Positions 5,055 to 50,784 are shown, counted from the stretch's first letter. The stretch: 64,000 nucleotides of DNA from Candidatus Omnitrophota bacterium (GCA_043826565.1 JBDRPX010000038.1:6334-70333); one strand, 5' to 3'. Translations and numbers: made by a program. Notes: generated by a model from the sequence alone, not told the origin.

Positions 5055-5113
5055 AATGTGTTACGAAGTTTTTTAAGGCATTTGCGATAGTTTTATGATG
5101 CAAAAAAAAAGCT

Positions 5114-5141
5114 TGTCGAAATAGAGTAAATTAGTTATAAT
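5114..5141 (+). promoter_or_regulatory. sigma70-like promoter (TTGTCG-16-TATAAT)
   Basis: TTGTCG at 5114-5119 and TATAAT at 5136-5141, upstream of the 5214 ORF. Confidence 0.4.
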
Positions 5142-5213: not shown

Positions 5214-5702
5214 ATGATGAAAAAAATTATAAAAATATTAGCAATTATAGGGATACCGCTATTGTTATGCGGATATCGTCTTGGTGATGAAGAAGAAGGT
5301 TTTCATAAGAAAAAAAAAGGGCCCACCGAACCTGTTTCCGAATATGAGGTAACAGTCAAACCGCAGCAATCTGTAGAAGATTTATACCAACAATACCATT
5401 TGCTTATTGTGACTTCTCTTAAGGAAGCTTCGGATTCAATAAATAAAGATTACCATCGGGCTTGCGGAATGATAAAAAATGCCTATCATTATTTGCAAAT
5501 ACTCAGCGAATTATATATTGATGAGCATAAAGACGATCTTAGGGAAATGAAAACACAAATCAAAGAGATTTATTCTTCCTTGGAAAGAAGTAATCTTACG
5601 CAAATTAAAAAAAGTAAAATTGAGCGTCGGCTGAAAGATATTGTAGCTGTCTTAAAGACTGATTATAAGTATGAAAAAATTGCGGAATGGACAAAGGAAT
5701 GA
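5214..5702 (+). CDS. Hypothetical secreted protein or lipoprotein
   Basis: N-terminal signal peptide 'MMKKIIKILAIIGIPLLLCGY' with a possible lipobox. The rest is predicted helical and charged. Confidence 0.5.
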   Translation: MMKKIIKILAIIGIPLLLCGYRLGDEEEGFHKKKKGPTEPVSEYEVTVKPQQSVEDLYQQYHLLIVTSLKEASDSINKDYHRACGMIKNAYHYLQILSELYIDEHKDDLREMKTQIKEIYSSLERSNLTQIKKSKIERRLKDIVAVLKTDYKYEKIAEWTKE

Positions 5703-6298
5703 TATTGGAAACTGTAGTTGTGGGGCAGTTAGAAACAAATTGTTATATTTTTGGATCCAGTGAAACTAAGGAAGTTTTATTGATTGACCCTGGAGCCGAG
5801 CCGGAAAAAATCAAGGCTGTATTAAACAAGATGCAAGCGATTGTAAAAGCGGTAATTTTAACCCATGGACATTATGACCATACCGGGGCAATGGAGGAAT
5901 TTGATGTGCCGATTTATATACATGCTGATGAATTTGATTTTCTTAAAGAAGATACAAGTTGCTATTGCGCGGTAAAGGATCAAAGAATTTTAGATAATTT
6001 TAAGCTAATAAAAGATGGGGACAGTATAAGTGCCGGGATTCAAAAGTTAACAGTTTTAGATACTCCGGGGCATTCTGCTGGAGGCATATCACTTAAGGGG
6101 GAGGGAGTTGTGTTTAGCGGGGATACATTATTTGCCCAGGGAATCGGGCGCACAGATTTGCCGGGAGGGTCTTACCGGCAGTTAATAGACTCGATAAAAA
6201 CAAAGTTAATGATTCTAGATGATGCGGTTGTTGTTCTTCCCGGGCATGGTGCGCAGACAACAATAGGGCAGGAAAGAATGGAATATCTATACTCATGA
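5687..6298 (+). CDS. MBL-fold metallo-hydrolase (glyoxalase II-like)
   Basis: HxHxDH motif 'ILTHGHYDHTGA', then downstream His/Asp ligands (LPGHG). Confidence 0.85.
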   Translation: MDKGMILETVVVGQLETNCYIFGSSETKEVLLIDPGAEPEKIKAVLNKMQAIVKAVILTHGHYDHTGAMEEFDVPIYIHADEFDFLKEDTSCYCAVKDQRILDNFKLIKDGDSISAGIQKLTVLDTPGHSAGGISLKGEGVVFSGDTLFAQGIGRTDLPGGSYRQLIDSIKTKLMILDDAVVVLPGHGAQTTIGQERMEYLYS

Positions 6299-6816
6299 GT
6301 CTAACGCGCAGAGAATTATTTCTTACAGTATTTTATTTGATAATTATCGGTTGTGTTGCTATTTATTTTTTCTTTTATAAATATCTATTTACGCAGTATA
6401 ATAGTATTAATGAAGAGATATTTTCTGTAGAGCAGGCTCTTTCTAAAATAAATTCTATAATGGATAGTAAAGATATTGTAGAAAAAGAATATAGCGAATT
6501 TGAGCAGAAATTATCTTCTGGTAAAATTGAAAAAGCGGCCTCTACTGAGATATTACAGGATATCAAGACCAAAGCAGCTTCTGCGGGATTAAATGTTATT
6601 AATATAAAACCTTTTCTGCTTAAGGAAGAAGGGTTGTACGGAGAATTTGATTTTAAGCTGGAGACCGAGGGTGCGCTTAAAAATCTTGGGCAGTTTTTAT
6701 ACGAGTTAGATGATTCTTTATACCTATTTACGATTAAATATATGCAGGTTAATGCCGGCAGTCAGGGTGAATCATTACAGGTGCAATTAATGCTAAGCGC
6801 TATGCTGGCCAAATAA
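6295..6816 (+). CDS. PilO/GspM-like inner-membrane pilus/secretion assembly protein
   Basis: One N-terminal TM helix, a coiled-coil segment, then an ~80 aa C-terminal domain. It sits immediately upstream of the PilP-like and secretin genes. ATGA overlap with the upstream gene. Confidence 0.5.
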   Translation: MSLTRRELFLTVFYLIIIGCVAIYFFFYKYLFTQYNSINEEIFSVEQALSKINSIMDSKDIVEKEYSEFEQKLSSGKIEKAASTEILQDIKTKAASAGLNVINIKPFLLKEEGLYGEFDFKLETEGALKNLGQFLYELDDSLYLFTIKYMQVNAGSQGESLQVQLMLSAMLAK

Positions 6817-6829
6817 TTGAGGATCTATT

Positions 6830-7330
6830 GTGGGTGAAAAAACAGTAGTTATGCCGGTTCAAAGATTACGTTATCTTGATATTATTAATACTTTATTAAC
6901 TTGCGGATTATTGGTGTTAATAATGGCTGTGATCAGTCTGAAGTTTATGGGAAAAAATGATAATATTCTTAATTTGAAATATTCGGCGGAACAAACAGGT
7001 ATAATCCCGGAATTAAAGATTTTTAAGAAACCATTAGATTATTATGAAAAGATTCTATCAAGGAAAGACTTATTTATTGGACAGCCGCAAGTTAAAAATT
7101 TAAAATCTAAGGTTACCGGCGCAAATAATGGAGGCCAGCTTAGTGAATTGGAATTAATGGGCATTGTGTCCGGTCCGCAAGGTCCGCAGGCAATAATTAA
7201 TAATTCCAAAACAGACAGGTCTTTTTATTGTCAAGGAGGAGAAAATCTTGGTGACTTTACAGTTAAAAAAGTTTATCTTGATCGGGTTCTCTTGGAGAGG
7301 GATGGAGAGGAATTGGAGTTGAGGCTATGA
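6830..7330 (+). CDS. PilP-like (secretin-interacting) protein
   Basis: N-terminal TM helix and a C-terminal beta-rich 'HR'-like domain (…GDFTVKKVYLDRVLLERDGEELEL). Its stop overlaps the secretin start. Confidence 0.45.
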   Translation: MGEKTVVMPVQRLRYLDIINTLLTCGLLVLIMAVISLKFMGKNDNILNLKYSAEQTGIIPELKIFKKPLDYYEKILSRKDLFIGQPQVKNLKSKVTGANNGGQLSELELMGIVSGPQGPQAIINNSKTDRSFYCQGGENLGDFTVKKVYLDRVLLERDGEELELRL

Positions 7331-8841
7331 AAATGATTAAGAAAACCTTAAAGTTGATTCTGCTCTGTTGCGTTTGCTTTTTATTTGTCGGCGTCGCGGT
7401 CCAGGCACAGGAAAGTATGGGGCAAAACATTAATCTTGATGTAAAAAACATGAGTGTGATTGATGTGTTAAGATTGCTTGCTGAGCAGGGGCAGGTAAAC
7501 ATAGTGGCAAGTAAAAATGTGCAAGGCCGGATCACCGCTAAACTGCAGGATATTACTGTGGAGCAGGCACTGGAAGCAATTTTAGACGCAAATAATTTTG
7601 TTTATAAAAAGGACAGAGGGGTTATTAAGGTTTTTGCGATGCAGGATATCTTGCAGCAGGAGCAGACCGAGAAACTTTTTAGCCGAGTATTTCTTCTTAG
7701 CAATATTAAAGCTGCTGATTTCCGGCAGGTATTGAATTCGATTAAATCAGCCCGGGGACGCGTGGAAATCAATACCGTGTCTAATCAGGTTATTGTTACC
7801 GATACTTTGGAAAAAATTGACGAAATCGAGAAGATAATATTTGATTCCGACCGGAATATGATCACGAAAATATATAGTTTAAATTATGCTGATGCTAATG
7901 AGTTGAAGGAAAAATTGGTTGAACTTATTCCGAAGCAATCCGGGGAAGTCTTTGTCGATGAGAGAACTAATGGAATCGTGGTTCGGGCTGTTGCCGAAAC
8001 TATTGAAAAAGTAGATATGTTAATGAAAAGCTGGGACATGAGGTCTGCCCAGGTTTTGATCGAAGCAAAGATCCTGGAAGTTTCTTTTGATAATACAAAA
8101 GGGGTGGGGGTAACCTGGGAGTATCAGTCGGATACGGTTAAAGACAGCGTAGGTGTTTCCGCCAGTTTACCGGTCAGTGTTAGCGGCGGAGGAATTTTTA
8201 AGGTGGGAACTTTAAGCGCAGATGAGTATGCCGTTACGATTCAGGCCTTAGAGAGTTCCACAAATACTAATATTTTGTCGAATCCCAGAATTGTTGTTCT
8301 TGATAATACCGAAGCGAATATACTTGTGGGAAGTGCCGAGCCTTATCTGGTGACTTATATAGATAAAGAGTCAAATACACAAACTGAAGAAACCAAGTTT
8401 ATCGATGTTGGTGTTAAGTTAAATGTTACTCCGAAAATAAGTAAAGATGATTTTATTACTTTAAAAATTCACCCGGAGGTAAGTTCTGCCCGAAGAGTCG
8501 CCGAGGTTAATAATGCTTTAGCGGTTGATACTACACAGGCTGATACTACGGTTGTGATAAAGGACGGAGAAACAATTGTCATGGGCGGGTTGATTAAAGA
8601 TACGACATCAAAAATAAGGACTAAAGTGCCGATTTTAGGGGATATTCCGCTTATTGGATTGTTGTTTAGAAGTTATGTGGATACGAAGGTGAAAAAGGAA
8701 ATTGTGGTGTTCATTACCCCGCATATTCTCAAGGTTCCTTCGATATTGACAAAAGAACAAAAAAGAAGTGAAGCTGTTGAGCAGGCTATGGAAAGGGCTG
8801 GTAAAAAGTGGCAGGAATGGGAAGCAGAAGGAGGTAAATAA
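7327..8841 (+). CDS. pilQ: Secretin (type IV pilus PilQ / T2SS GspD family)
   Basis: Signal peptide. Canonical secretin C-terminal domain 'VPILGDIPLIGLLFRS...EIVVFITPHIL' and N0/N1-like domains before it. Confidence 0.9.
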   Translation: MKMIKKTLKLILLCCVCFLFVGVAVQAQESMGQNINLDVKNMSVIDVLRLLAEQGQVNIVASKNVQGRITAKLQDITVEQALEAILDANNFVYKKDRGVIKVFAMQDILQQEQTEKLFSRVFLLSNIKAADFRQVLNSIKSARGRVEINTVSNQVIVTDTLEKIDEIEKIIFDSDRNMITKIYSLNYADANELKEKLVELIPKQSGEVFVDERTNGIVVRAVAETIEKVDMLMKSWDMRSAQVLIEAKILEVSFDNTKGVGVTWEYQSDTVKDSVGVSASLPVSVSGGGIFKVGTLSADEYAVTIQALESSTNTNILSNPRIVVLDNTEANILVGSAEPYLVTYIDKESNTQTEETKFIDVGVKLNVTPKISKDDFITLKIHPEVSSARRVAEVNNALAVDTTQADTTVVIKDGETIVMGGLIKDTTSKIRTKVPILGDIPLIGLLFRSYVDTKVKKEIVVFITPHILKVPSILTKEQKRSEAVEQAMERAGKKWQEWEAEGGK

Positions 8842-8842
8842 A

Positions 8843-9412
8843 ATGAATAATACGATTAAAATGATTTTTGTTTTTACTTTGGGAGTTTTATTTTTAGTTT
8901 TCTCCGGTGCGGGACATTGCGCGATGCTGTCATTAAGTCCGGAGGAGCTTACCGATGATTCCGATGAGGTTATTATCGGCAGAGTCATTAGTAAAGACTC
9001 TCATTGGAATGAAGATGCCACAGCAATTGTTACCGATGTTAAGGTTCAGATCAATGAGGTTCTTAAGGGAGAAGATATTGAGAATCCGGTAACTATCGAA
9101 ATTCTTGGCGGAGTTGTCGGAGAAATGGAAATGAAAGTCTCGGATGCTGCCTTCTTTGAACAGAATGAGGAAGTTGTGCTTTTTTTAAGTGATAGTGATT
9201 TAAATATTAAAGCGAAGGAATTAACCGGCAATGTTCAGGGAAAATACAGTATAAAGGAAAATCTTTTAACAGGACAAAAGGAAGTTGAATCAGCAGGTGG
9301 TGTTCGTGTAAGTAAAGTTGGGCAAGTGAGTGTTGAATCCAGCCAACCGATTGCTTATGACGAGTTCATTGGTCAGATAAAACAAGTAATTTTAGATGCT
9401 CAGGAAGAATAG
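8843..9412 (+). CDS. Hypothetical secreted protein
   Basis: ATG at 8843 with a GGAGGT RBS and signal peptide 'MNNTIKMIFVFTLGVLFLVFSGAGHCA'. No recognisable family. Confidence 0.55.
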   Translation: MNNTIKMIFVFTLGVLFLVFSGAGHCAMLSLSPEELTDDSDEVIIGRVISKDSHWNEDATAIVTDVKVQINEVLKGEDIENPVTIEILGGVVGEMEMKVSDAAFFEQNEEVVLFLSDSDLNIKAKELTGNVQGKYSIKENLLTGQKEVESAGGVRVSKVGQVSVESSQPIAYDEFIGQIKQVILDAQEE

Positions 9413-9427
9413 AAGAGGAGGATTAGA

Positions 9428-10663
9428 GTGTTTTATAAAAAGACGGCTTTAATACTGGTTATTTGTTTGAATTTGTTTTGTGTTGGGGGAAATAATAATG
9501 TTTTTGGCTATGAGACTTTTGGAAAATGGGCGGATAGTAGTATCCCTGTTCCGTACTACATAAACGCAGATGGCTCAGATAATATCTCAGATGGAAGTGA
9601 TCTTACAGCTTGTCAGACTTCATTTCAAACCTGGACCAATGTGGCGACTACAGATATTGCGGTAACCTATCTTGGGACTAGTACTAGTACCAGTGGTGGA
9701 ACTCTGGATGGCGTTAACCTTTTGTCTTGGGTGGAGAATACCGCAGATCCTCGGTATGTTAATACTGTGAAAGTAGCCGGTACTATTGCGGTATGTGTGG
9801 CATGGGTTTCGAGTGGTACTATAGTGGATGCGGATATTATTTTTAATGGTGCTGATCATACTTGGTCTACCAGCGGAGCTGGAGGAGCTATGGATGTGCA
9901 GAATTTAGCAACGCATGAAATAGGCCATTTTTTTGGATTAGATGATTTATATACTGCTGCGGATACGGAAAAAACCATGTATGGTTATGGATCTACCGGA
10001 GAAACAAAAAAACGCGACTTACATCAGGATGATATTGATGGTATTTCCGCGCTTTATCCGTATTCCGGAATAATTGATTTTTCCGCTAATTCGATTTCTG
10101 TAGCTGATGCAAGCTGGAATACCTTGAGCTGGAAAAACCCCAGCCGAAGTACATTTGTAAGAACGATGATACGCTATCGTACTGATGGTACGCATCCGGC
10201 AAATACTAGCGATGGAACGCTATTAGTTTTACAAAACGGCACTCCCGGGGCTAGTGAATATTATAATCATACCGGACTTATCCCAAACACAACATATTAC
10301 TATACCGCATTTGCTTTTGATTCAGTAAATGGATATAATGCTCCGAATGATGCAAGTAAAAAAAGTGCCGCTTCTTTAGGTGCGGGCGGAGTAGTGGATA
10401 AAGGGGCAAAAAGTGATTGTTTTGTGGCTACCGCATGTTATGGTAATATGCAGGCAGATGAGGTTAAATCATTACGTGAATTTAGAGATAAATATCTTAA
10501 AAAAACAGTGTTGGGAAAAGAGTTTGTTCGGGGTTATTATTTAATCGGTCCATATTTTGCTCAAATGCTCAATGAAAATTTTCAATATAAAGGAATTGTG
10601 CGGATGATGCTGAAACCGGCGGTCAAATTTGCTGATTTTGTTACAAAGGGAGGGTGTTTATAA
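9428..10663 (+). CDS. Secreted Zn metalloprotease (snapalysin/metzincin-like HExxHxxGxxD) with FN3-like region and a conserved Cys-containing C-terminal domain
   Basis: GTG start with a GAGGAGG RBS and a signal peptide. 'HEIGHFFGLDDLY' zinc motif. The C-terminal ~90 aa begin 'CFVATACYG...LREFRDKYL', a recurring C-terminal domain in secreted proteins. Confidence 0.7.
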   Translation: MFYKKTALILVICLNLFCVGGNNNVFGYETFGKWADSSIPVPYYINADGSDNISDGSDLTACQTSFQTWTNVATTDIAVTYLGTSTSTSGGTLDGVNLLSWVENTADPRYVNTVKVAGTIAVCVAWVSSGTIVDADIIFNGADHTWSTSGAGGAMDVQNLATHEIGHFFGLDDLYTAADTEKTMYGYGSTGETKKRDLHQDDIDGISALYPYSGIIDFSANSISVADASWNTLSWKNPSRSTFVRTMIRYRTDGTHPANTSDGTLLVLQNGTPGASEYYNHTGLIPNTTYYYTAFAFDSVNGYNAPNDASKKSAASLGAGGVVDKGAKSDCFVATACYGNMQADEVKSLREFRDKYLKKTVLGKEFVRGYYLIGPYFAQMLNENFQYKGIVRMMLKPAVKFADFVTKGGCL

Positions 10664-11628
10664 TGGTAAAAGGATTTGCGATATTTACAGTGATTTTTAC
10701 AGTCCTTGTGGTTTGCTCAGGTTTGTGTTTTGCCATAGAAGGCGGAACCAGGCCGATTTCTATGGGCGGTGCTTTTGTGGCTATAGCTGATGATGCGCAT
10801 GCGGTTAGTTGGAATCCTGCGGGAATGGCTTGGCAGGAAGATTTCGAATTGACTTATTCGGCCATATTGAATAATCGGGATAAATATATATGCGGTGATT
10901 TTATGAGTGATGATTATTTAAGTTTATGTGCGCCGATTAAGGCCGGATATAAATCTGATTTTAATTCTTTTGGGGCAGTTGGTTTGTTTGTAAATAATAC
11001 CGGGTATAAGCAGGGCGGAGCAAATACAGAAATTTTTCAGCCGGGGATATCTTATGGAAAACAAATTTTTTCCGATAATTTTGCGGTGGGAGTATCCTTG
11101 TCTTCTTATGCGCTGGATGTCAGTGTCCCTAATATAAGTGACAATGACACTGTTTATAGCATTAATCTGGGAGTTTTGTGGTATATTAATGAACATGTTA
11201 CGTTTGGTTGTTTATGGGAGAACGTGAATGAGCCTACTTATTCACTATTTAATATAACAAATCGTTTGGTGAGAAATCTGCGTCCGGGAATCGCGTATTA
11301 TTTTAGTGAAAATACCGTGATTACTATGGACATCTATGATTTAACCGGGAATACGGAGGATCGTGCCAGTGATTATAGTCAGGATATCCGAATTGGATTT
11401 GAACACTATCTTAATGATGATATTTCGCTAAGGGTGGGAGCGCATCATCCTAATTCCGATGTTGATAGCAGTAAATATTATTCATGCGGTTTTGGGTGGC
11501 AGCGGTCAGATTTTATGGGAGTATATCCGGTTAGTTATTATTTGGACTATGGTTTTGTTTATTGGCCGGAAGCACCTACCGGAACGGATACGTATACTCA
11601 TCAGCTTGGTGCGACTTTGAAATTTTAA
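10663..11628 (+). CDS. Outer-membrane beta-barrel protein (FadL/TraF/PorV-like superfamily)
   Basis: Signal peptide. 'GGAFVAIADDAHAVSWNPAGMA' resembles the N-terminal motif of OMPP1/FadL/TraF-like barrels. Alternating amphipathic strands and a C-terminal Phe. Confidence 0.5.
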   Translation: MVKGFAIFTVIFTVLVVCSGLCFAIEGGTRPISMGGAFVAIADDAHAVSWNPAGMAWQEDFELTYSAILNNRDKYICGDFMSDDYLSLCAPIKAGYKSDFNSFGAVGLFVNNTGYKQGGANTEIFQPGISYGKQIFSDNFAVGVSLSSYALDVSVPNISDNDTVYSINLGVLWYINEHVTFGCLWENVNEPTYSLFNITNRLVRNLRPGIAYYFSENTVITMDIYDLTGNTEDRASDYSQDIRIGFEHYLNDDISLRVGAHHPNSDVDSSKYYSCGFGWQRSDFMGVYPVSYYLDYGFVYWPEAPTGTDTYTHQLGATLKF

Positions 11629-11638
11629 GAGGTTGTAA

Positions 11639-12472
11639 ATGAAAAAATTTTTAATAATACTTTTAGGATTTTTTATATTTTCGATGAATATCCTGTTTAT
11701 CGGTTTTCGTCTGAGTAATTTGAAGCATATTCATAGTAAACGTCAGTATATTAATCAGCGTTTAGAATTGATCGCCGTTAGAAGTGCTGCTTTTAAAGTT
11801 TCTTGTCGATTTCCGGAGCAGGGGGCAGCAAGTTCATCCCTAATCGTCGATGTTCCGAAAAATATAATGATTGCGCCTCCACAGATATTAAAGCAAAAAT
11901 TAGTAAAAAATATTCCGATCCGATTGCTGGGTATCGTCAAAGGCAAATCACCGGTGGCTTTTCTGGAATTGCTCGATAAAAAAATCAGCGGAATCTATCG
12001 TGAGGGAGACAATATCGGTGAGGCTACTGTTTGCGGTATATTTTCCGATAAAATATTGCTGCGTATCGATGGGCAGGAGTTTGAACTTACTTTTGAAAAA
12101 ACAATTGCCGATAAACAGGACTTACCTGTAGAATTTATTGCTGATAATGAGCTTTTGATTGAGAAAAAGAGTTTTAGTAAGAAAGTCCTGGATATTGCCG
12201 GCGAAGCTAATAAATTAAAGATTTCCCGGTCAGTGGATATTGATACGCAAAAAATTAAAGGATTGCAGGTTTCTAAAGTGCCGAAAAATGGCTTCATTGA
12301 AAATCTTGGGCTGAAAGATGATGATATTATTAGTAGAGTTAATGGGATGCAGGTAGATAGTATTCCTAAAGCCCTGGGAATTATGAATAAAATAAAGTCT
12401 TCAAATCTAATTAAACTTGAAATTATCAGAAATAATATACCCTTAATGCTTAAATATCAGATAAGGGACTGA
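11639..12472 (+). CDS. TM-anchored PDZ-domain protein (GspC-like)
   Basis: N-terminal TM helix and a C-terminal PDZ '...GLQVSKVPKNGFIENLGLKDDDIISRVNGMQV...'. Confidence 0.45.
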   Translation: MKKFLIILLGFFIFSMNILFIGFRLSNLKHIHSKRQYINQRLELIAVRSAAFKVSCRFPEQGAASSSLIVDVPKNIMIAPPQILKQKLVKNIPIRLLGIVKGKSPVAFLELLDKKISGIYREGDNIGEATVCGIFSDKILLRIDGQEFELTFEKTIADKQDLPVEFIADNELLIEKKSFSKKVLDIAGEANKLKISRSVDIDTQKIKGLQVSKVPKNGFIENLGLKDDDIISRVNGMQVDSIPKALGIMNKIKSSNLIKLEIIRNNIPLMLKYQIRD

Positions 12473-12492: not shown

Positions 12493-12521
12493 TTGACATA
12501 ATAAATAATCCATGTTATACT
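12493..12521 (+). promoter_or_regulatory. Consensus sigma70 promoter (TTGACA-17-TATACT)
   Basis: TTGACA at 12493-12498, a 17-nt spacer and TATACT at 12516-12521. This is the same architecture as the promoter at 28269. Confidence 0.55.
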
Positions 12522-12601
12522 TAAGGTGAAGCAAGTTTTTTTATGGCAAGTAATTAAGTACTTTTATAATCATTATTGTATCTTCTGACAAGGAGGCGGA
12601 G

Positions 12602-12793
12602 GTGAATAATAATTTATTTATCCAGAGGAGGTTTCAGGTTAAGAGGGACTCAGAGAGTGGTTGTGTGAATTTTTTAGGGTCTATTTATATTGCGTACTAT
12701 TTTTATGTAAATAATGAGTTGTATGTTTCTAAATACGCATTGTGCGTAAAGTTTACCAAAAAGGAATCAGAAATTAAGCAGATGATTAAGTAA
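12602..12793 (+). CDS. Small hypothetical protein (63 aa, Tyr/aromatic-rich) or unrecognised ncRNA
   Basis: GTG start immediately after a strong SD 'AAGGAGGCGGAGG'. The unit is bounded by a consensus promoter upstream and an intrinsic terminator downstream. Confidence 0.3.
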   Translation: MNNNLFIQRRFQVKRDSESGCVNFLGSIYIAYYFYVNNELYVSKYALCVKFTKKESEIKQMIK

Positions 12794-12823
12794 CTCTATA
12801 TTTTTCAAATAGTTTAGGATTTT

Positions 12824-12852
12824 AAGCTCCTCATATTGAGGAGCTTTTTTAT
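12824..12852 (+). terminator. Rho-independent terminator
   Basis: Hairpin 'AAGCTCCTCA-TATTG-AGGAGCTT' followed by TTTTTT. Confidence 0.65.
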
Positions 12853-22555: not shown

Positions 22556-22999
22556 GTGCTTTTGGACGACCAGATTCATTATCAAAATGATGATAACAGG
22601 ACCGGCGAAAGAAGGAATTTTGTACGCATAAATGCAAACTTCGTGGTGAGTTATTATAAATATCCGGGAGAAGTCAATCACACGGATATGAGTCTAACCC
22701 GTAATATTAGTCTGGGCGGGATATGTTTTACTACAGATAATGATTTTGAACTCGGCGCAATTTTACATATTACCTTAAGACTGCCTAAAGTTACGAAATT
22801 AATCGAGTTTTTGGGGGAAGTGGTATTTACTAAGCAGGAAAAAGGAAAGAATTCTATCTTTGATATCGGGGTAAAATTTGTGCAGGCACAAGAAGAAGAC
22901 CTCTATATTTTGCAAAACATCATAAAAGACTGTGCGGCTAGTGATAGTACTATTATTATAAACATTACCGAAAGAAGAAAAGAAGAGGACAATGAATAG
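22556..22999 (+). CDS. PilZ-domain protein (c-di-GMP receptor)
   Basis: RxxxR 'ERRNFVRI' and D/NxSxxG 'NISLGG' motifs in the typical PilZ spacing. GTG/TTG start, exact position uncertain. 8-nt overlap with hom. Confidence 0.7.
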   Translation: MLLDDQIHYQNDDNRTGERRNFVRINANFVVSYYKYPGEVNHTDMSLTRNISLGGICFTTDNDFELGAILHITLRLPKVTKLIEFLGEVVFTKQEKGKNSIFDIGVKFVQAQEEDLYILQNIIKDCAASDSTIIINITERRKEEDNE

Positions 23000-28685: not shown

Positions 28686-31600
28686 ATGAAAACATATTAT
28701 CGCAATTATTCTGTTTTGGTAATCTGCTGTTTCCTCGCATACGTGTTCTTACCGAGCACTGCGATGGCTCAGTCTTTTGATGATTTCATGGAGAGCGGAT
28801 TAAGTCAGGAAGTTCTTCAGGGATTATTCAATTCCAGTGATCCTATCAGCGATCAAAGTGACGCGGCAAATCTTTCACAAACCGAAATCGCTCCACCTCC
28901 TATGGTTATTACTACTTCGGGCGGGGATATTTATTTGCTTCAGGGCGATGGCGTAAAAGCTAAATTAAAAATCGATCAACAAGGGACTCTGGAAACTACT
29001 TATTCACTTGACGGTTCTGATCTCAAAATGATTAATGAATTTGGTGAAGAATTCCATTATGAATATTCTCGTGATGGACAGACCGTGCAGATTCTTAATG
29101 CCAATGACGAGGTTATTGCCACACATTCTTTTGAATTAGGTAAAGTTACTGCTTTTTCAAGTCAAGGGAAAATCACTTATCAATATGCTAATGATGGCAG
29201 TGATCGCATGATTTCCTCTACTGATGAATGGGGCAATGTAACTAATTATGATGATTTGGGCCGTCCGGCTACAATAACTGATAGTAAAGGAGTTGTTGTT
29301 GGTCAGTATAAGTTTGATAACAAAGGAAAAATAGAAACATTCACAGATCATAATGGTAGTGTAACGGTATTTGATAGTGAAGGTTTGAGACCTCTTTATA
29401 CAAAGAATGCTCAGGGAACAAAAACTCAGGAATATCGTTATGATTCAACAGGGCATCTTACCGCGGTTTTGAATAATGTAAACGGTCAGATGACGGAAGT
29501 TGAAAACGGATACTATACTATAATTTATAATACAGTTGAAGCCACTACTCCTGACGGTACTGTGATAACTGATGATGAGGGAAATCCGATACTTGAATAT
29601 GTGGCCACCGGAGTATATAGTTATGATGCCGCTGGTAATGTTGAGGCAATTAATGATGTCGGGCCTGGTGGTATTATCACCGGTTGGACTGAATATGATG
29701 ATTATGGCAGAGTTTCGGCAACCTATAATGCCGAGGGAACAAAGATCCAGGAATATGCCTATAACCAGCATGGTTTTCTGGAGATGACAATTTCCTTAGG
29801 GTCTGTTGATGCTTTGACCGGGCAGCAGACAATGCAGAGTTATACGGTTTTTGATGGTCATGGCCGTCCTAGCGAAGTTTGGCAGATCGGCGATACCGCT
29901 AGTGATAAAGTTAAGATCCAGGAATATACTTATAAGGCAGATGGGTTACTTGATGTAACTTATTCCTTGGGGATAAAGAGAGATGATTTGGGTAATGCCA
30001 TCTTAGATGATGCCGGTGAGTATGTTTACATAACTACATCTAAAACTGTTTATGATACAAAAGGCCGTCCGAATGCTGTTTATGGAATGGTTCGTGACGA
30101 AAGCGGTGAAATTGTAAATGATGATATGGGTAATCCTATTTTGGAAGTTCAGCAGAAGTATACTTACGATAACAAAGGGTTCTTATCAAAAACAACATCG
30201 TATGGGTTTGGCGGAATAAAAACAGGGGAAACAGTGTTTGATGCATATAGCCGTCCGACAGAATCTTTTAACTCATCCGGAGCTTTAACTCAGACATATA
30301 CCTATGGTAATGATGGATTTCTTAAAGAGACATCTAATTATGGTGAAAATGGAGCATTTACCGGTTATACTCTTTATGACGCAAAAGGTAAGCCAACGGA
30401 TGTTTATAACCATGAAGGAAGTCTGACCCAAAAATATATCTATGACCAGAATGGTTTATTGTTAATGAGTTTAAGTTTATCTGCGGAAGCCGGTGGTAAT
30501 GATGCAGTAGTTGCCACTCTTTCTGATAAAATGACAATCGCACAATTATGGAATAGTGAATGGGATTCTCAATATGATTTCCTTGATCCGGACAATCAGT
30601 TAACATCAGAGCACTTAATTGCAGAAGCTTGGAGTGCCTTAGAAAGTGGAGATACGGAAAAGGCAAAAGCATTTTCTCTTAAATGTATTCAGACATTCTC
30701 CGCTGATGCAACATCTCAGCAAAAGCAAAATGATTCTTTACCGGCAGGGCCGGCTATTTTTGACAACTGGGCTTTAAATGATGTGGGAACCGGTTATTTT
30801 ATTCTTGGTCAAGCATTGGAAACAGAGGGTTCTAATGATGCCGCTGCCAGTGCTTATAAAATTCAGGCCGCTGAATTTGAATTCGCGCAATGTTGGGATC
30901 CGGCAGAAGGTAGTTTCTGGGTTGTTAGTGACGGCTCTAAAGTTCAGCTTAACGCGGATCACTTAAATGTAAACACATCAGTAGTAACCGGGTATACTCT
31001 TTTTGGCGGAGATTCCAAGCCGATCGCGTCATATCAGTTCTATGAAAAATTTGATGAAAATGGCGCAAGTCTTGGTGTCCAGGAAACCAAAGTGCAGGAG
31101 TATGTTTACACATATCAGGCAAACGTAAAAGTAATAGATCCGGTTTCCGGAGAAACTTCAACAGTCGCAGTTACTAAGAATTCCGGCTTTGTCCAGAAAA
31201 CGGTTAATTTTGGTGATATCATTGATCAGGCTACCGGAGAACAGGAAGTAACCGGATATACGACATTTGATAAGCTGGGCCGGCAGGACAGTACGTTTAA
31301 TTCAGATGACCAGCTTGTGCAAAGTTACAAATATTCCGGAGAAGGGTTTTTGAAATATACATATAGTTATGGTGCAAACAAGGCTAAAACCGGAACCACA
31401 TTGTTTGATCATTATTCACGGCCGGTAGCTAGTTTTAATATGGCCGGAACAGAAATTACTAAGATTCCGCAAGAACTTATTCGTGCTTTAGGCAGCGGAT
31501 TAACCGAAGCTGACTTAGCTAATCAGGATTGGCAGCCATATTTAAAAGGTCTAAATCAGACTTTTGAATATGACAGTAATGGATTTTTAAGTTCCAGTAA

Positions 31601-34600
31601 GTCTTATGGAGAAGGATTAGTCTTAAGTACCAGCCAAATATCCGGGCTTGTTGCGGCAATGGGATCATCTGTTGGAGATGCAGCGTACGATGTTACTTGT
31701 GATTATAATGAAGACGGCACGGTGAATTATGATGATATGGTTATTCTTAATGAGGCATTTGATGGCGCGGAAATGTTTGCGAATACATATGGCTCAAAAG
31801 CCGGCGATGGTAATTACTTCGCTCAATATGATTATGACAGCGATGGAGATGTAGATAAGAAGGATTTGTCATCATTTGGAAAGACTTTTGAGAAATCAAC
31901 AGAGTATCGGCCGACATGGACCGGTGTGACAAATTATGATAAATACGGTAAAGCAGATACTGTTATGAATGTTATCGAGGATGCTTCCGGAAATCAAGTT
32001 GAGGGAGTGCTGGTCCAGAAGTATGAGTATAATGAGCGCGGGTTTATGGAGAGATCAGTTTCTTATGGAATTCTTACTGATGATCAGGGTAATGTGATTA
32101 AAGATGGTGAGAATCCGATATCCATAGCCACAGGTTTTACACAGTTTGATGCTGGCTCACGGCCTGTAGCAACGTATAGCTTGTATGATGATGGGCTTAA
32201 TGGTTTGCAGGAATCTAAAATACAGGAATATGTATACGATAAAGGGTTCCTTACACAAACTGTTAACTTTGGTGATATCATTGATCAATCTACAGGTGAA
32301 TTGGCAAAGGCTGGTTATACTAATTTTGATAATTTTGGCCGGCAGACAACTAGTTATAACGAAGAAGGCCAAAAAACAACTGTATTTAAATATTCCATCC
32401 AGGGATTTATGTCCGAGACATACAACTATGGCAGCGGCGGAGCATATTTAGGAAAGACGGTGTTTAATAAAGCCGGCAGACCTACGGAAGCTTATAATAT
32501 GTATGCGAGCAAGAGCGGCACACAGAACGGTCTAACCCAGAAATTCAATTATAATGAGTATGGTTTTATGAGTCACAGTGAAAGCTTTGGACAGGATCAG
32601 ACTTTGACGAGTACAACTTACTATAATGGACATGGAAAAGGTTTAAGGGTAGAAAATGAAAAAGGGTTTGTAATTTCATCTTATCAGTATAATGAACGCG
32701 GATTCATGGAAAAGACTCAGAGTCTTGCGTTTATTGAAGTAACTGATCCGGCGGAAATTGCGAATCTGCAATCTCAGGGTCTTTATGTTCAGGAAACTGC
32801 AATTGATGATAATACCGGAGAAGCAGTAACCCAGGGAGGATTTTACGCGGTTACCGGGTATACGACATTTGATGCAAATTCGCGGCCAACCGAATCATAT
32901 CAGTGTTATTGGACTACTCAGGGCGAAGGTCAGGGGGTAAAGGTTCAAGAATATGTATATAAAGACGGATTCTTAGTAGAAACACTTAATTTTGGAAGGC
33001 CGGAAGGCGGAGAACAGCGAGTGGTGGGTACGACCTCGTTTGATAAATTCGGACGTCAGAGTGCTTCCTATAATGAACTAGGGCAGGTGACAACAAAGTA
33101 TCAATATTCAAACCAGGGTTTTTTAAGCGGCACAACGAATCATGGAGAAAAAGGTGTTAAGACGGGAAGTACGGAGATTAGTGCTTTAGGACGTCCAACC
33201 GCCGCTTATAACCATAAGGGTACTTTAGTTCAGGCATTTGGATATGACAGCGTTACCGGACAATTAACCGGAAGTACATCTTATGGGGAGCCGGATCCGG
33301 ATACAGGTGATCCGACTATGACTGGTACGACTACATATGATGCTTATGGTAAGGCGACAGGTGCTTATAATGATATGGGTGCTAAAGTTCAGGAATATGT
33401 TTACGATCCGCAGGGCTTTATGGTGGAAACTTTGAGCCTTGGAGATGATGACGGGAGTGGAAATCCAGTGATAACTGGTAGAACAGTTTATGATGATGCC
33501 AGTAAGCCGGTAGAATCCTACACAAGATCTAGTAGTGGTGTGGAGACCAGAGTTCAGGTGTTTGTATATAATACAGCAGTTGATTTAAGTAACTATGCTG
33601 ATTATGTAGCCAATCCTGATAATTATAGTGAGACAAAAACCGGATTCTTGAGTTCAACGTTTAGTCATGGTAAAGACAATTATCTGAGTGGATATACTAA
33701 GTTTAATCAGTATGGTCAACAGACAAACTCATATAATGAATTTAATGAGCTGACTGTGGCTTATAAATATTCTGGTTCCGGATTCATGAATGAATCATGG
33801 AGTTATGGGTTAAATAGTTTGCGTACTGGTAAAACGGTGTATTCATCTTCAGGCAGGCCGGAAGCTTCTTATAATGAAAAAGGCGCTGTAGTTCAGCAGT
33901 TTAACTATAATGCCAACGGTTTCATGGCATCAACAACGTCATTTGGCGATGTTGGAGACGATGGTAATCCTACACAGACACAGACTACCTATTATGATGG
34001 ATATGGAAAACAGACTCACAGTATGAATACCGAAGGTAGTATTGTTCAGACATTTCAATATGATGATGCCGGGTTTTTACTGAAATCTCAGGGCTGGGCG
34101 CAATATGAAGGTGTCCCGGACGGTCTAACATGGTATGAAGTTCTCGACCAGGGATATGCCGTAGAAACAAGTTATACAACATATGATAATGCTTCCAGAC
34201 CAGTTGAGTCTTATATAGTTTATCAGGGTGATTCCGGAAGAAGAGAAGTCAAGACTCAGAGTTTTATTTACAACACTGGAGTTGATTCGACTAATTACCA
34301 GGATTATTTAGCGAATCCGGATAGCTATAGCGGTACACAGACTGGTTTTATGACCCAATCTGTATCTTATACTCTAAATAACGATGAAAACGGAGCTCCG
34401 GTATCTCATGAAGCGAATGGCGGCCGGGTTGCCAATGCTGTAGGTACAGAAGTAGTTGTTTCCGGGCTGACAACATATAATAGTTTTGGGCGGCCGGATA
34501 AGACATATAATCATCTCGGGCAAGTTGTTTCGGTAAGTTCATACAATGCGAATGGGTTCTTAAAAGAAACGCAAAACTTCGGTGAGAATGGTGCATATAG

Positions 34601-47676: not shown

Positions 47677-47723
47677 GGACAGGTCGTGACCTGTCCGAAG
47701 CCGCGTAATGGCTGTTCGTTTTT
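47677..47723 (+). terminator. Terminator region between convergent fba (+) and lptG (-)
   Basis: 8-bp hairpin GGACAGGT/ACCTGTCC, then a second weak hairpin and TTTTTT at 47717-47722. Confidence 0.45.
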
Positions 47724-47744
47724 TCTTAACATTCAATTGTAGGG

Positions 47745-48836
47745 TTATTTTCTTGCGGATTCCTCGATAAGCCAAATACCGGTAAAAAGAAATATTGTAT
47801 TAGTCATCCATGCGGAAATAAACGGCGGCAAGATCCCGATTTTACCAAAAGACATACATACGGCATGTACCGTCCAGTAGCTAAAACTTATGGCGATACT
47901 GATCGTTATTCCCAGGATAGTGCTGGTATTTCTTTTTTGTGTCAGGGTAAACGGAACCACAAAAAATATAATTATAAAGTTAGCCAAAGGAAAAGATACT
48001 TTACTATAAAATTCAACTAATTCCTTCCGGGCTTTAAACCCGTTGTTTTCCAGACGGCGGATGTATTTCTTAAGCTGCCAATAACTCATCAGGTTAGGTT
48101 GTATATTAGCTCGCTTAAAATCTTTTGGTTGTTCATCAATTAATATTACTTTTTCCACATAGTGCTCAGGGCTGCCGACCAATTCACCTTTAGAATATTC
48201 GCTGATAATACAATCATAGAATAGCCAATATCCTTCAACCCACTGAGCGCGTTTGGCGACAACCTGCCGGGATACTTCATTTTTACTATTATTTTCCGAA
48301 ATTATTATGTTATTCATTTGATAGCGTTTTGCGTCATAACTATTAATGATAAAAATCCTATTGTGCGACCCATATAAAGTTAAGTCTTTCATTATGTTGT
48401 TTTTTTCTTTTTTTGCATTAGTTTTAAAATATGATTCTTTAAGATTTTCCGCGTGCAAATATGAATCCGGCTTGATAAGCTCATTTATGCTAAAGCTTAC
48501 CGAGCTTATAAATAAACCGAAAATAATAAAAATCCCGATAATGCTCCAGAGATTAACTCCAATCGCCTTAATGGCCATGATCTCATTATTTTTATTTAAC
48601 GTGCTTAGGGTATAAATAGTTGCCAGGATCATAATAACCGGGCTGATCTGAACGAAAATATAAGGGGTCAGCGAGAAATAATAATCGCAAAGTACAAACA
48701 ACGGTACTTTTGCTTTGGCGATCTCATCGAGATGTTCAAAGAGGTCAATAATCCAGGATAAAGAAATAAATAAAATTAAACACCAGACATACGGTTTTAA
48801 AAACTCACCAAGAATATATTTTTTCAGTATTTTCAT
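47745..48836 (-). CDS. lptG: LPS export permease LptG (YjgP/YjgQ family)
   Basis: 363 aa, 6-TM YjgP/YjgQ architecture with a periplasmic beta-jellyroll insertion. Immediately downstream of its paralog. Confidence 0.75.
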   Translation of the reverse strand: MKILKKYILGEFLKPYVWCLILFISLSWIIDLFEHLDEIAKAKVPLFVLCDYYFSLTPYIFVQISPVIMILATIYTLSTLNKNNEIMAIKAIGVNLWSIIGIFIIFGLFISSVSFSINELIKPDSYLHAENLKESYFKTNAKKEKNNIMKDLTLYGSHNRIFIINSYDAKRYQMNNIIISENNSKNEVSRQVVAKRAQWVEGYWLFYDCIISEYSKGELVGSPEHYVEKVILIDEQPKDFKRANIQPNLMSYWQLKKYIRRLENNGFKARKELVEFYSKVSFPLANFIIIFFVVPFTLTQKRNTSTILGITISIAISFSYWTVHAVCMSFGKIGILPPFISAWMTNTIFLFTGIWLIEESARK

Positions 48837-48838
48837 AA

Positions 48839-49933: not shown

Positions 49934-49938
49934 TTGCT

Positions 49939-50622: not shown

Positions 50623-50710
50623 AGTTTAATAATGTTAACTAAGTCTTTAATATAACACAAATAAGAACATTTTTCAAATAGGCAATCTGAATTTGCCGGG
50701 ATAGGAAGAA

Positions 50711-50762
50711 CTGGAAAATAAATTCCCTATGCCAAAATATTTATCGGCATAGGGAATTTTTA
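50711..50762 (-). terminator. Bidirectional intrinsic terminator downstream of the GT2 gene
   Basis: 12-bp perfect stem ATTCCCTATGCC/GGCATAGGGAAT with a 12-nt loop and T-rich flanks on both strands. Confidence 0.6.
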
Positions 50763-50784
50763 AATTACCCGGACATTAGTATAT

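What the first reader, a model, noticed from the sequence alone, without database searches (positions are those of the whole stretch)
5214..12472. Secretin-centred cluster without pilins or ATPase
Nine co-directional, tightly packed genes lie behind one promoter: a lipoprotein, an MBL hydrolase, PilO/GspM-like, PilP-like, secretin, a secreted 21-kDa protein, a snapalysin-like metzincin, an OM beta-barrel and a TM-PDZ protein. It looks like a T4P/T2SS hybrid: a PilP-like HR-domain protein plus a separate GspC-like PDZ protein. There is no PilM/N, PilB/T ATPase or (pseudo)pilin within 7 kb. The cargo candidate appears to be the metzincin encoded inside the operon. This could be a dedicated, minimal secretin pathway or one half of a split T4P/T2SS locus.
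Basis: inference. Interest (0 to 1): 0.6.

Follow-up and report, generated by a model that had tools for sequence, protein, structure and literature searches.

The report
Split type II secretion module, tagged protease
This operon from an uncultured Omnitrophota bacterium encodes the outer half of a type II protein-secretion machine. It also encodes a protease with an uncharacterised C-terminal "CFI-box" domain and a PorV-like outer-membrane barrel, which hints at how such machines pick and keep their cargo.

Summary
The nine co-directional genes at 5214-12472 are real, and the 64-kb window holds no pilin, ATPase or PilM/N gene. The cluster is conserved in at least 12 Omnitrophota species genomes.

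The core is GspM/PilO-like, an HR-only GspC/PilP-like protein and a 504-aa secretin. The next gene slot holds a swappable protease: M10 metzincin here, C25 gingipain-like in most relatives. All versions keep the same FN3-like region and CFI-box-CTERM tail. A PorV/FadL-like barrel follows.

A second GspC-like protein (HR+PDZ, g9) and a pro-domain-like protein (g6) occur only in the M10-type loci.

One metagenomic relative (L054) has a 43%-identical secretin in the same GspM, HR-only, secretin order. There it sits inside a T2SS-like operon with GspG, a PilM/GspL-like protein, a GspE/PilB-family ATPase and an adjacent CFI-box cargo. The "split T2SS locus" reading is therefore favoured over a minimal ATPase-free pathway.

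CFI-box cargo genes elsewhere repeatedly sit next to GspC-like, secretin, GspL/M, GspE or PorV-like genes (16 of 53 non-redundant loci).

The link between the CFI-box tag, the T2SS and PorV-like barrels is inferred from gene neighbourhoods only. The rest of this genome could not be inspected.

The parts
5113..5141 (+). Sigma-70-like promoter candidate for the operon (TTGTCG-17-TATAAT).
   Evidence: (10 of 12 matches). A consensus match only; not shown to function.
5214..5702 (+). g1: 162-aa secreted or signal-anchored helical protein of unknown role. A pilotin-like helper is possible but untested.
   Evidence: No significant family or PDB hit. Present in the syntenic Omnitrophota loci that extend far enough upstream and not detected in the other CFI-box loci. 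The lipobox Cys is not conserved.
5687..6298 (+). g2: MBL-fold hydrolase (GloB/YcbL-like) with no signal peptide, probably cytoplasmic. Its reading frame overlaps g1 and g3.
   Evidence: Lactamase_B 101 bits; TIGR03413 84 bits, below its cut-off. About 50% identity in the syntenic loci that cover this region. Absent from L054.
6295..6816 (+). g3: GspM/PilO-like bitopic inner-membrane protein (N-terminal transmembrane helix plus a periplasmic domain).
   Evidence: T2SSM_b 28.2 bits and PilO 25.0 bits, both above Pfam cut-offs. GspM_XpsM E 1.4e-9, below its cut-off. 25% identical to L054 GspM, E 6e-17.
6830..7330 (+). g4: transmembrane-anchored protein carrying only a GspC-type HR domain. It is the predicted contact with the secretin N0 domain (the PilP/GspC-HR role) and the constant partner of the secretin.
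   Evidence: T2SSC 35.8 bits against 27; no PilP hit. Found immediately upstream of the secretin in nearly all syntenic loci and in L054. Its HR domain is 33% identical to that of g9.
7327..8841 (+). g5: 504-aa secretin with signal peptide, N0 (STN), two Secretin_N domains, the secretin domain and a conserved C-terminal KWxEWE tail.
   Evidence: Scores nearly equally as PilQ (263.8 bits, cut-off 284.35) and GspD (262.5 bits, cut-off 351.35). 43% identical over 500 aa to the L054 secretin.
8843..9412 (+). g6: 189-aa secreted protein. It is a free-standing version of a domain that sits at the N-terminus of another M10 protease, so a pro-domain, inhibitor or chaperone role is inferred.
   Evidence: Residues 31-116 match residues 22-107 of P0116, E 8e-9. 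Found only in loci with the M10-type cargo. No family or PDB hit.
9428..10663 (+). g7: the cargo. Signal peptide, M10 metzincin domain (HEIGHFFGLDD with a TMYGY Met-turn), an FN3-like region, a Gly-rich linker and the CFI-box-CTERM domain (about 10418-10660).
   Evidence: Peptidase_M10 39.2 bits against 24; fn3 below threshold; CFI_box_CTERM 76.6 bits against 40. AF2 models the tail as a compact four-helix domain, pLDDT 87. NCBI names the identical protein 'CFI-box-CTERM domain-containing protein'.
10663..11628 (+). g8: PorV/FadL-superfamily outer-membrane beta-barrel with a conserved N-terminal WNPAG (NPA) motif. Proposed partner or anchor of the CFI-box cargo.
   Evidence: PorV_fam E 8e-16, below cut-off. 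The family profile hits only PorV (6h3i_F) in the PDB, E 4.4e-5. AF2 pLDDT 76.7; Foldseek top matches are FadL and TodX, E 2e-9. Always follows the cargo gene in the syntenic loci that reach that far.
11639..12472 (+). g9: accessory GspC paralogue with a transmembrane anchor, an HR domain and a C-terminal PDZ domain. Proposed cargo-specific adaptor.
   Evidence: GspC_delta E 3.8e-17; TIGR01713 E 2.5e-9; PDZ 23.3 bits. Present only in M10-type loci. Homologues are the most recurrent neighbour of CFI-box cargo genes elsewhere.

Best explanation
The operon encodes the outer-membrane-proximal subcomplex of a type II secretion system (T2SS) found in Omnitrophota, together with one dedicated substrate set.

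Shown:
- g3 is GspM/PilO-like. g4 and g9 carry GspC-type HR domains, and g9 also has a PDZ domain. g5 is a secretin.
- g7 is a Sec-exported metzincin with a C-terminal CFI-box-CTERM domain. g8 is a PorV/FadL-like barrel.
- The arrangement is conserved in many Omnitrophota genomes.
- A relative has the orthologous module inside a T2SS-like operon.

Inferred:
- The missing pseudopilins, GspL, GspE, GspF and prepilin peptidase are encoded elsewhere in this genome.
- g4, and g9 where present, bridge the inner-membrane platform to the N0 ring of the secretin.
- The protease folds in the periplasm. g6 may act there as a detached pro-domain or inhibitor.
- The protease is selected with help from the PDZ-bearing GspC paralogue g9 and pushed through the secretin by the pseudopilus.
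- It is then kept at the cell surface through its CFI-box domain, possibly by docking to the PorV-like barrel g8.
For: - Domain assignments.
- Conservation: the order acylphosphatase, g1, MBL, GspM, HR-only, secretin, cargo, PorV-like recurs in 12 species genomes and in further contigs.
- Cargo swap: the slot between the secretin and the PorV-like gene holds an M10 protease in the window, L002, L016/L039, L019 and L021. It holds a Propeptide_C25 + Peptidase_C25 protein in at least 12 other loci. The FN3-like and CFI-box tail stays 40-54% identical throughout.
- L054 gene order: CFI-box cargo, two opposite-strand regulator genes, GspC (HR+PDZ), GspG (156 bits against a cut-off of 88.85), PilM/GspL-like, GspM, HR-only, secretin (43% identity, 503 against 504 aa), GspC2, GspE/PilB.
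- Other independent arrangements: GspL and GspM followed by tandem CFI-box C25, C39-like and GH10 cargos (L037, L046). A secretin followed by a CFI-box PKD protein (L092). A CFI-box cargo directly followed by a GspC-like gene (L020, L055, L061, L074). A 3226-aa CFI-box protein with a GspE/PilB-family ATPase fragment downstream (L081) and a prepilin-like ORF on the related contig L075.
- Counts: 16 of 53 non-redundant CFI-box loci, and 10 of 23 with at least 4 kb of flank, have T2SS-like or PorV-like neighbours. In an unbiased clustering, the GspC-like protein is the most recurrent non-cargo neighbour, in 6 independent groups.
- Precedents: the GlyGly-CTERM protease VesB needs the T2SS (PMC6219818) and the EpsC PDZ domain, through its Ig-fold (PMC12369372). 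MYXO-CTERM proteins need a T2SS, and Synerg-CTERM co-occurs with a divergent T2SS (10.1101/2023.06.07.544157; PMC11980579).
- Omnitrophota carry gspD/E/F-type loci elsewhere in their genomes (10.1101/2023.11.21.568195; 10.64898/2026.06.07.730766).
Against: - The rest of this genome could not be searched, so the 'other half' is assumed and not seen. No ATPase or pilin lies within 10 kb on either side of the secretin (or to the contig end) in any of the syntenic loci.
- The secretin, GspC and GspM matches fall below NCBIfam's curated cut-offs. The secretin scores as well for PilQ as for GspD, and the L054 secretin passes the PilQ subfamily cut-off.
- Most CFI-box loci (37 of 53) show no T2SS or PorV-like neighbour, although many of those contigs are short.
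- The CFI-box family is very large: 17,556 representative clusters. Some small members have zinc-ribbon-like Cys motifs near the N-terminus and no evident signal peptide, and some have an added transmembrane tail. It is therefore not simply a T2SS tag.
- The syntenic genomes are close enough that housekeeping neighbours (M16 peptidase, rpe, pgm, lepA) are conserved too. Synteny within this clade alone is weak evidence of function.
- The role proposed for g8 rests on adjacency only.
Confidence: 0.6

Rival explanations
1. The module is a PilO-PilP-PilQ-type part of a type IVa pilus or competence machine. The secretin lets a pilus or DNA pass, and the protease and PorV-like genes are unrelated passengers in the operon.
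For: The PilQ subfamily model scores slightly better than GspD: 263.8 against 262.5 bits here, and 299.6 bits (above the cut-off) in L054. HofQ models also match. PilO Pfam is above its cut-off. The L054 ATPase scores best as PilB, and its L-like protein matches PilM. pilMNOPQ operons are commonly separate from the pilin and ATPase genes (textbook knowledge).
Against: There is no PilP Pfam hit, and g4 and g9 match T2SSC/GspC. PDZ-bearing GspC is a T2SS component. The pilin in L054 passes the GspG equivalog cut-off. There are no AMIN domains and no PilM/N next to the PilO-like gene. Cargo genes with a shared tail recur beside these genes in independent arrangements.
Confidence: 0.15
2. The cluster is a self-sufficient, ATPase-free secretin pathway. 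GspM-like, HR proteins and the secretin alone export the protease, which the PorV-like barrel captures.
For: No ATPase, platform or pilin gene lies in the 64-kb window or within 10 kb of the secretin in at least 12 syntenic genomes. All the envelope parts, the cargo and an outer-membrane partner sit in one operon.
Against: The orthologous module in L054 is embedded with GspG, a GspL-like protein and GspE. GspM homologues work with GspL and GspE in every characterised system (established knowledge). No energy source for export would be present. Omnitrophota are reported to encode gspE/F elsewhere (10.1101/2023.11.21.568195).
Confidence: 0.1
3. The operon is a mixed bag. The secretin module and the protease/PorV-like pair are functionally unrelated and are neighbours only through inherited synteny in one Omnitrophota clade. 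The CFI-box would be a general membrane- or surface-association domain unrelated to secretins.
For: Housekeeping genes are equally syntenic in these genomes. 37 of 53 CFI-box loci have no T2SS or PorV-like neighbour. Some CFI-box proteins have zinc-ribbon-like N-termini without evident signal peptides. A cytoplasmic MBL hydrolase sits in the same operon.
Against: T2SS-type neighbours of CFI-box genes recur in at least 8 different gene arrangements outside the syntenic clade. A chance rate of about 1% per 10-20 kb is my estimate, not a computed figure. The GspC-like protein is the top recurrent neighbour in an unbiased clustering. The cargo was swapped in place while the tail and both flanking genes were kept.
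Confidence: 0.15

Closest known systems
Classical type II secretion system (Gsp/Eps/Pul), in particular V. cholerae Eps secreting the surface protease VesB
   Same: A secretin with N0 and N domains. GspC with a transmembrane anchor, an HR domain and a PDZ domain. GspM. The cargo is a Sec-exported protease with an Ig-like domain and a C-terminal tag. In Vibrio the EpsC PDZ domain is needed specifically for VesB (PMC12369372), and tagged cargo stays on the surface (PMC6219818).
   Different: Here the locus is split: no GspE, F, G-K, L or O in 64 kb. There are two or three HR-domain paralogues, including an HR-only protein. The secretin is short (504 aa) and is as PilQ-like as it is GspD-like. 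The tag is a folded 70-aa helical CFI-box domain, not a GlyGly-CTERM transmembrane signal. No rhombosortase is evident. A PorV-like barrel is encoded next to the cargo.
Cys-containing C-terminal sorting signals linked to T2SS (MYXO-CTERM/myxosortase, Synerg-CTERM)
   Same: An invariant Cys after a Gly/Ser-rich linker at the C-terminus of secreted hydrolases, many-to-one with a secretion apparatus. g7 also matches the myxosortase-dependent metalloprotease family MXAN_2677/2678 (E 2.3e-18). g9 matches the GspC models built for the Myxococcota (delta) and Synergistota systems.
   Different: The CFI-box is not tripartite. In the window protein there is no transmembrane helix or Arg cluster after the motif, and AF2 gives a soluble four-helix domain. 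No CPBP-type protease was seen in the neighbourhoods. No published description of the CFI-box was found.
T9SS PorV with CTD-tagged cargo such as gingipains (Bacteroidota)
   Same: A PorV-family-like outer-membrane barrel is encoded next to a C-terminally tagged protease. In most relatives that protease belongs to the gingipain family C25, complete with its propeptide.
   Different: No SprA, PorU or other T9SS genes and no T9SS CTD (PF18962) were found. The translocon encoded alongside is a secretin. g8 is below the PorV family cut-off, and structurally it is equally FadL-like.
T4aP alignment subcomplex PilMNOPQ
   Same: The order PilO-like, HR-domain protein, secretin mirrors pilO-pilP-pilQ. 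The HR domain plays the same structural role as PilP.
   Different: No PilM/N and no AMIN domains. The HR protein is transmembrane-anchored and matches T2SSC, not PilP. A PDZ-bearing GspC paralogue and a cargo gene are present.

Membership tests
Type II secretion system (Gsp) | Outer-membrane secretin GspD | tested here: inconclusive
   Secretin Pfam 166.6 bits, clearly a secretin. The GspD equivalog scores 262.5 bits against a cut-off of 351.35, and PilQ scores 263.8 against 284.35. The best PDB sequence match is a GspD (5wln, E 1.4e-39), closely followed by PilQ.
Type II secretion system (Gsp) | GspC: transmembrane anchor, HR domain and a PDZ or coiled-coil domain | tested here: met
   g9 has an N-terminal transmembrane helix, an HR domain and a PDZ domain. 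GspC_delta E 3.8e-17 and TIGR01713 E 2.5e-9, both below the equivalog cut-offs. g4 scores T2SSC 35.8 bits against 27.
Type II secretion system (Gsp) | GspM (with its partner GspL) | tested here: inconclusive
   g3 scores T2SSM_b 28.2 bits against 21.7, and GspM_XpsM 37.8 bits against 60. No GspL is present in the window. GspL-like genes precede the g3 homologues in L054, L037 and L046.
Type II secretion system (Gsp) | Major pseudopilin GspG and minor pseudopilins | tested here: not met
   No prepilin-type ORF occurs in the 64-kb window or in the syntenic loci. GspG is present in the relative L054 (156 bits against 88.85).
Type II secretion system (Gsp) | GspE ATPase and GspF platform | tested here: not met
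   Absent from the window. A GspE/PilB-type ATPase lies next to the orthologous module in L054 and next to a CFI-box giant protein in L081. Genome-wide presence is not testable with these tools.
Type IVa pilus PilMNOPQ subcomplex | PilP lipoprotein (PF04351) and PilM/PilN adjacent to PilO and PilQ | tested here: not met
   No PilP hit at E<=1. g4 has a transmembrane anchor and no lipobox. No PilM/N in the window. PilO Pfam itself is met (25.0 bits against 22).
T9SS PorV/PorQ family | Score above the NF033709 cut-off, and co-occurrence with T9SS CTD cargo and SprA/PorU | tested here: not met
   58.5 bits against 90, E 8e-16. The profile's only significant PDB hit is PorV 6h3i_F, E 4.4e-5. The fold is FadL-like. 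The cargo has no T9SS CTD hit. I therefore file g8 as PorV/FadL-like and not as a PorV.
CFI-box-CTERM domain (NF041770) | C-terminal domain of about 69 aa beginning with CF[IV]ATA and scoring above the curated cut-off | tested here: met
   76.6 bits against 40, covering residues 331-399 of 411. The invariant residues C, F, A, T, G, FRD, YY and P are shared with relatives. NCBI gives the identical protein that name.
Tripartite Cys-type sorting signals (MYXO-, Synerg-, JDVT-, CGP-CTERM) | Signature motif with Cys, then a transmembrane helix, then an Arg-rich cluster | tested here: not met
   The Cys and the Gly/Ser linker are present. No transmembrane helix or basic tail follows in g7. AF2 models a four-helix soluble domain, pLDDT 87. 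34 of 144 representative CFI-box proteins do carry an extra transmembrane-like tail.
Peptidase M10 / metzincins | HExxHxxGxx[H/D] zinc site with a Met-turn, and a Pfam PF00413 match | tested here: met
PF00413 39.2 bits against 24. HEIGHFFGLDD and TMYGY can be read in the sequence.

The most novel reading that the evidence does not exclude
The CFI-box-CTERM domain is a portable sorting and retention module for a secretin-based (T2SS-type) pathway. Cargo-specific PDZ-bearing GspC paralogues select CFI-box proteins, perhaps through the adjacent Ig/FN3-like domain. After passage through the secretin, the folded helical CFI-box docks to a PorV/FadL-like outer-membrane barrel that holds the enzyme on the cell surface. 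This would be a secretin counterpart of the T9SS CTD-PorV hand-off, used by predatory or epibiotic Omnitrophota to display proteases.
Probability: 0.25. Interest if true: 0.8.

Novelty: new variant of a known kind. Interest (0 to 1): 0.55.

Why it matters
How T2SSs recognise their substrates is a long-standing open question, because most substrates carry no common linear signal. This work points to a large family of secreted hydrolases and adhesins that share a compact, confidently modelled C-terminal domain. The phmmer search found 17,556 representative clusters. Their genes repeatedly lie beside GspC-PDZ paralogues, secretins and PorV-like barrels.

If the link is functional, it supplies a defined tag, a defined candidate receptor (the accessory GspC) and a candidate surface anchor. 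Each can be tested by fusion and interaction experiments.

It would also show how Omnitrophota, which are uncultured, ultra-small and possibly predatory, arm their surface with gingipain-like and metzincin proteases. If the link is not functional, the locus is simply a split T2SS operon with a neighbouring protease.

Tried and rejected
- Literature searches for CFI-box or CFIATAA returned no paper. Searches for Omnitrophota plus secretin gave nothing relevant.
- Cluster look-ups gave little taxonomy for CFI-box proteins: only Omnitrophota, Cloacimonadota and Ratteibacteria were named.
- An attempt to walk beyond the window end failed because the gene was not on record.
- I rejected g1 as a firm lipoprotein, because its Cys is not conserved.
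- I rejected g4 as PilP.
- I rejected g8 as a bona fide T9SS PorV: it scores below the family cut-off, and neither the window nor the cargo shows any T9SS feature.
- I rejected the CFI-box as a classical tripartite sortase-type signal, because it has no transmembrane helix or Arg tail and folds as a helical domain.
- I considered a ComEC-like DNA-uptake role for the MBL protein g2 and dropped it. g2 is a small GloB-type enzyme with no competence domains.

Full report
**Origin and setting.** The window matches Candidatus Omnitrophota. An identical 28.7-kb contig sits in a Logan assembly. NCBI holds the same proteins on a 134.5-kb Omnitrophota MAG contig. Twelve of the 13 related genome loci found with the secretin are closely related, and nearly all are titled Omnitrophota or PVC-group MAGs. 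The window is 36-41% G+C with a strong positive GC skew and almost wholly co-directional genes. It encodes KDO and Lpt functions, so the organism has an outer membrane.

Nine + strand ORFs fill 5214-12472 with overlaps or gaps of at most 16 nt.
- A sigma-70-like site lies in the upstream gap (5113-5141).
- After g9 come a near-consensus promoter (12493-12521), a small conserved ORF and a strong terminator (12824-12846). The operon therefore probably ends at g9.
- Pfam and NCBIfam confirm the MBL hydrolase, a GspM/PilO-like protein, a T2SSC (HR-domain) protein, a secretin (STN, two Secretin_N, Secretin), an M10 metzincin, and a transmembrane protein with HR and PDZ domains that matches GspC.
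- None of the long ORFs scanned elsewhere in the 64 kb is a pilin, PilB/T/C, PilM/N or GspE/F/L.
- A six-frame scan for prepilin leader motifs is empty for the window and all syntenic loci. The same scan picks up the GspG of L054.

- g6 and g8 probably start at 8843 and 10663.
- The Cys of the g1 'lipobox' is replaced in 5 of 13 distinct orthologue N-termini.
- g4 is anchored by a transmembrane helix and has no PilP match.
- g2 lacks a signal peptide.

- The metzincin ends in a CFI-box-CTERM domain (NF041770, 76.6 bits against a cut-off of 40). The domain follows an FN3-like region that scores below threshold and a Gly-rich linker.
- The 'OM beta-barrel' is homologous to the PorV/PorQ family (E 8e-16, but below the curated cut-off). 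A profile of its family hits only PorV (6h3i_F, E 4.4e-5) among PDB sequences. Its AF2 model (pLDDT 76.7) is a FadL/TodX-type barrel. The FadL/PorV-type NPA motif is invariant.
- g6 matches the N-terminal region of another M10 protease (P0116, E 8e-9). It looks like a detached pro-domain or inhibitor-like module.

**Conservation and cargo swapping.** In the related genomes the order is acylphosphatase, g1, MBL, GspM-like, HR-only, secretin, cargo, PorV-like, small ORF, M16 peptidase, rpe.
- The slot between the secretin and the PorV-like gene differs between loci. The window, L002, L016/L039, L019 and L021 have g6 plus the M10 protease, and g9 follows the barrel wherever the contig extends that far.
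- At least 12 other loci have instead a single protein of about 850 aa with Propeptide_C25 and Peptidase_C25 (the gingipain family). These loci have no g6 and no g9.
- Both cargo types end in the same FN3-like and CFI-box tail. The tail region shows 40-47% identity by tblastn, and the CFI-box itself 41-54%.
- The catalytic head was therefore exchanged in place while the tail and the flanking genes were kept.
- Housekeeping neighbours are also syntenic in this clade. Synteny inside the clade is thus weak evidence on its own.

**Independent contexts.** I scanned JGI metagenome contigs with the CFI-box motif and obtained 78 loci. I searched their ORFs with profiles built from the window proteins.
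- L054: a secretin 43% identical over 500 aa (503 against 504 aa) keeps the GspM, HR-only, secretin order but sits in a fuller operon. That operon reads CFI-box cargo, two opposite-strand regulator genes, GspC (HR+PDZ), GspG (TIGR01710, 156 bits against 88.85), PilM/GspL-like, GspM, HR-only, secretin, a second GspC, and a GspE/PilB ATPase.
- L037 and L046: GspL and GspM are followed by a C25 propeptide protein and two or three tandem CFI-box cargos. In L037 these are a C25 peptidase, a C39-like peptidase and a GH10 xylanase.
- L092: a secretin is followed by a CFI-box PKD-repeat protein.
- L020, L055, L061 and L074: a CFI-box cargo is directly followed by a GspC-like HR+PDZ gene, with best NCBIfam hits to GspC at E 1e-22 to 1e-33.
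- L081 has a 3226-aa CFI-box protein with a GspE/PilB-family ATPase fragment downstream. The related contig L075 carries a prepilin-like ORF.
- Two further groups (the L050 and L028 types) have a larger PorV/BamG/FadL-like barrel, a Peptidase_MA-like protein and a CFI-box cargo, but no secretin nearby.
- After redundancy removal, 16 of 53 groups have a T2SS-like or PorV-like neighbour. Among groups with at least 4 kb of flank the figure is 10 of 23.
- In an unbiased all-against-all clustering of neighbour ORFs, with the whole syntenic clade collapsed to one group, the GspC-like protein is the most recurrent non-cargo neighbour (6 groups). The secretin and an unnamed 184-aa membrane protein each recur in 3.
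- A random region of 10-20 kb would be expected to contain a T2SS gene about 1% of the time. This is my estimate and was not computed.

**The CFI-box itself.**
- A full phmmer scan of 1.84 billion representatives finds 17,556 clusters at E<=1e-3.
- Among the best 144 motif-bearing members, the Cys lies 60-120 residues from the C-terminus in 140 of 144.
- 34 carry an additional transmembrane-like tail, and about 45% have a Gly/Ser-rich linker before the Cys.
- Some small members have zinc-ribbon-like Cys motifs near the N-terminus and no evident signal peptide. The domain is therefore not exclusive to secreted proteins.
- AF2 with a 33-sequence alignment gives a confident compact four-helix domain (pLDDT 87). 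Foldseek finds no PDB analogue.
- It is not a classical tripartite sorting signal of motif, transmembrane helix and Arg cluster. No paper in the searchable library mentions it.

**Interpretation.** The most economical reading is that 6295-8841 plus g9 encode the secretin-proximal part of a T2SS. The pseudopilins, GspL, GspE and GspF would lie elsewhere in the genome. This fits reports that Omnitrophota carry gspD/E/F-type loci (10.1101/2023.11.21.568195; 10.64898/2026.06.07.730766). g7, with g6, is a cognate substrate.

Known precedents make the cargo side plausible. The V. cholerae protease VesB carries a GlyGly-CTERM tag, needs the T2SS and stays on the surface (PMC6219818). It is the one substrate that fully depends on the EpsC PDZ domain, acting through VesB's Ig-fold (PMC12369372). 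MYXO-CTERM proteins need a T2SS, and Synerg-CTERM co-occurs with a divergent T2SS (10.1101/2023.06.07.544157; PMC11980579).

By analogy, the variable PDZ-bearing GspC paralogues may act as cargo-specific adaptors, and the HR-only protein would be the constant link to the secretin. The PorV-like barrel may then receive or anchor the CFI-box domain. All of these steps are inferences from gene neighbourhood and homology.

**What remains open.**
- I could not inspect the rest of this genome. The split-locus reading is supported by a relative and is not proven for this organism.
- The secretin is equally PilQ-like and GspD-like, so a pilus-type function is not excluded.
- The roles of g1, g2 and g8 are unproven.
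- Most CFI-box loci show no secretion genes nearby, although many of those contigs are short.

**Verdict.** The locus is a new variant of a known kind: a split T2SS with multiple GspC paralogues. Its possible coupling to the CFI-box tag and to PorV-like barrels has no description in the searchable literature and can be tested.

Noticed in passing
window 12493-12846: A 63-aa ORF (12602-12793) has its own near-consensus promoter (TTGACA-17-TG-TATACT, 12493-12521) and a strong terminator (12824-12846). It is conserved at 57-79% identity in nearly all syntenic Omnitrophota loci that reach this region, between the secretion cluster and the M16 peptidase gene. Its function is unknown.
   Followed up: partly
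window 7327-8841 (C-terminal residues about 475-504): The secretin tail carries a motif conserved across the clade (QA[MI]xxA...KW[RQ]EWE). It is probably an amphipathic helix resembling an S-domain. It could be the binding site for a pilotin-like helper such as g1, but no complex prediction was possible.
   Followed up: partly
window 28686-35540 and 22556-22999: A 2284-aa RHS-repeat protein and a separate PilZ-domain protein lie downstream. Published work notes very long proteins, PilZ genes and T2SS-like loci as recurring neighbours in Omnitrophota. The RHS protein has no CFI-box motif.
   Followed up: no
L037 1886-10231; L046 2743-10228: Two or three tandem CFI-box cargo genes (in L037 a C25 peptidase with a separate C25-propeptide protein, a C39-like peptidase and a GH10 xylanase) lie directly downstream of a GspL-GspM pair. 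They have near-identical Gly-rich linkers and CFI-box tails, which suggests cassette duplication.
   Followed up: partly
L050 5110-9733 (and the related L028, L032, L040 and L041 loci): In another lineage a 496-aa PorV/BamG/FadL-like barrel, a Peptidase_MA-like protein, a CFI-box beta-propeller-like protein and a conserved 184-aa multi-pass membrane protein form a recurring unit, with no secretin within about 7 kb. The membrane protein has no family hit and recurs in 3 independent groups.
   Followed up: partly
Representative proteins P0190, P0194, P0240, P0182; P0291, P0236, P0252, P0276: Some small CFI-box proteins begin with zinc-ribbon-like Cys motifs (CxxC pairs) and show no evident signal peptide. 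Others add a transmembrane helix and an Arg/Lys tail after the CFI-box. The domain is used in more than one topological setting.
   Followed up: no
window about 47700-52000: The GC skew drops to about zero exactly where the only block of minus-strand genes lies (LptF/G, a phosphoribosyltransferase-domain protein with a double zinc ribbon, and a GT2 glycosyltransferase). Everywhere else genes are on the + strand with a skew of +0.1 to +0.3. Strand composition therefore tracks transcription direction strongly in this genome.
   Followed up: no
L022 421-1011; L029 243-857: Homologues of g6 occur immediately downstream of a CFI-box protein on two short contigs. This is the reverse of the order in the window, and it reinforces a g6-cargo partnership that does not depend on gene order.
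   Followed up: no
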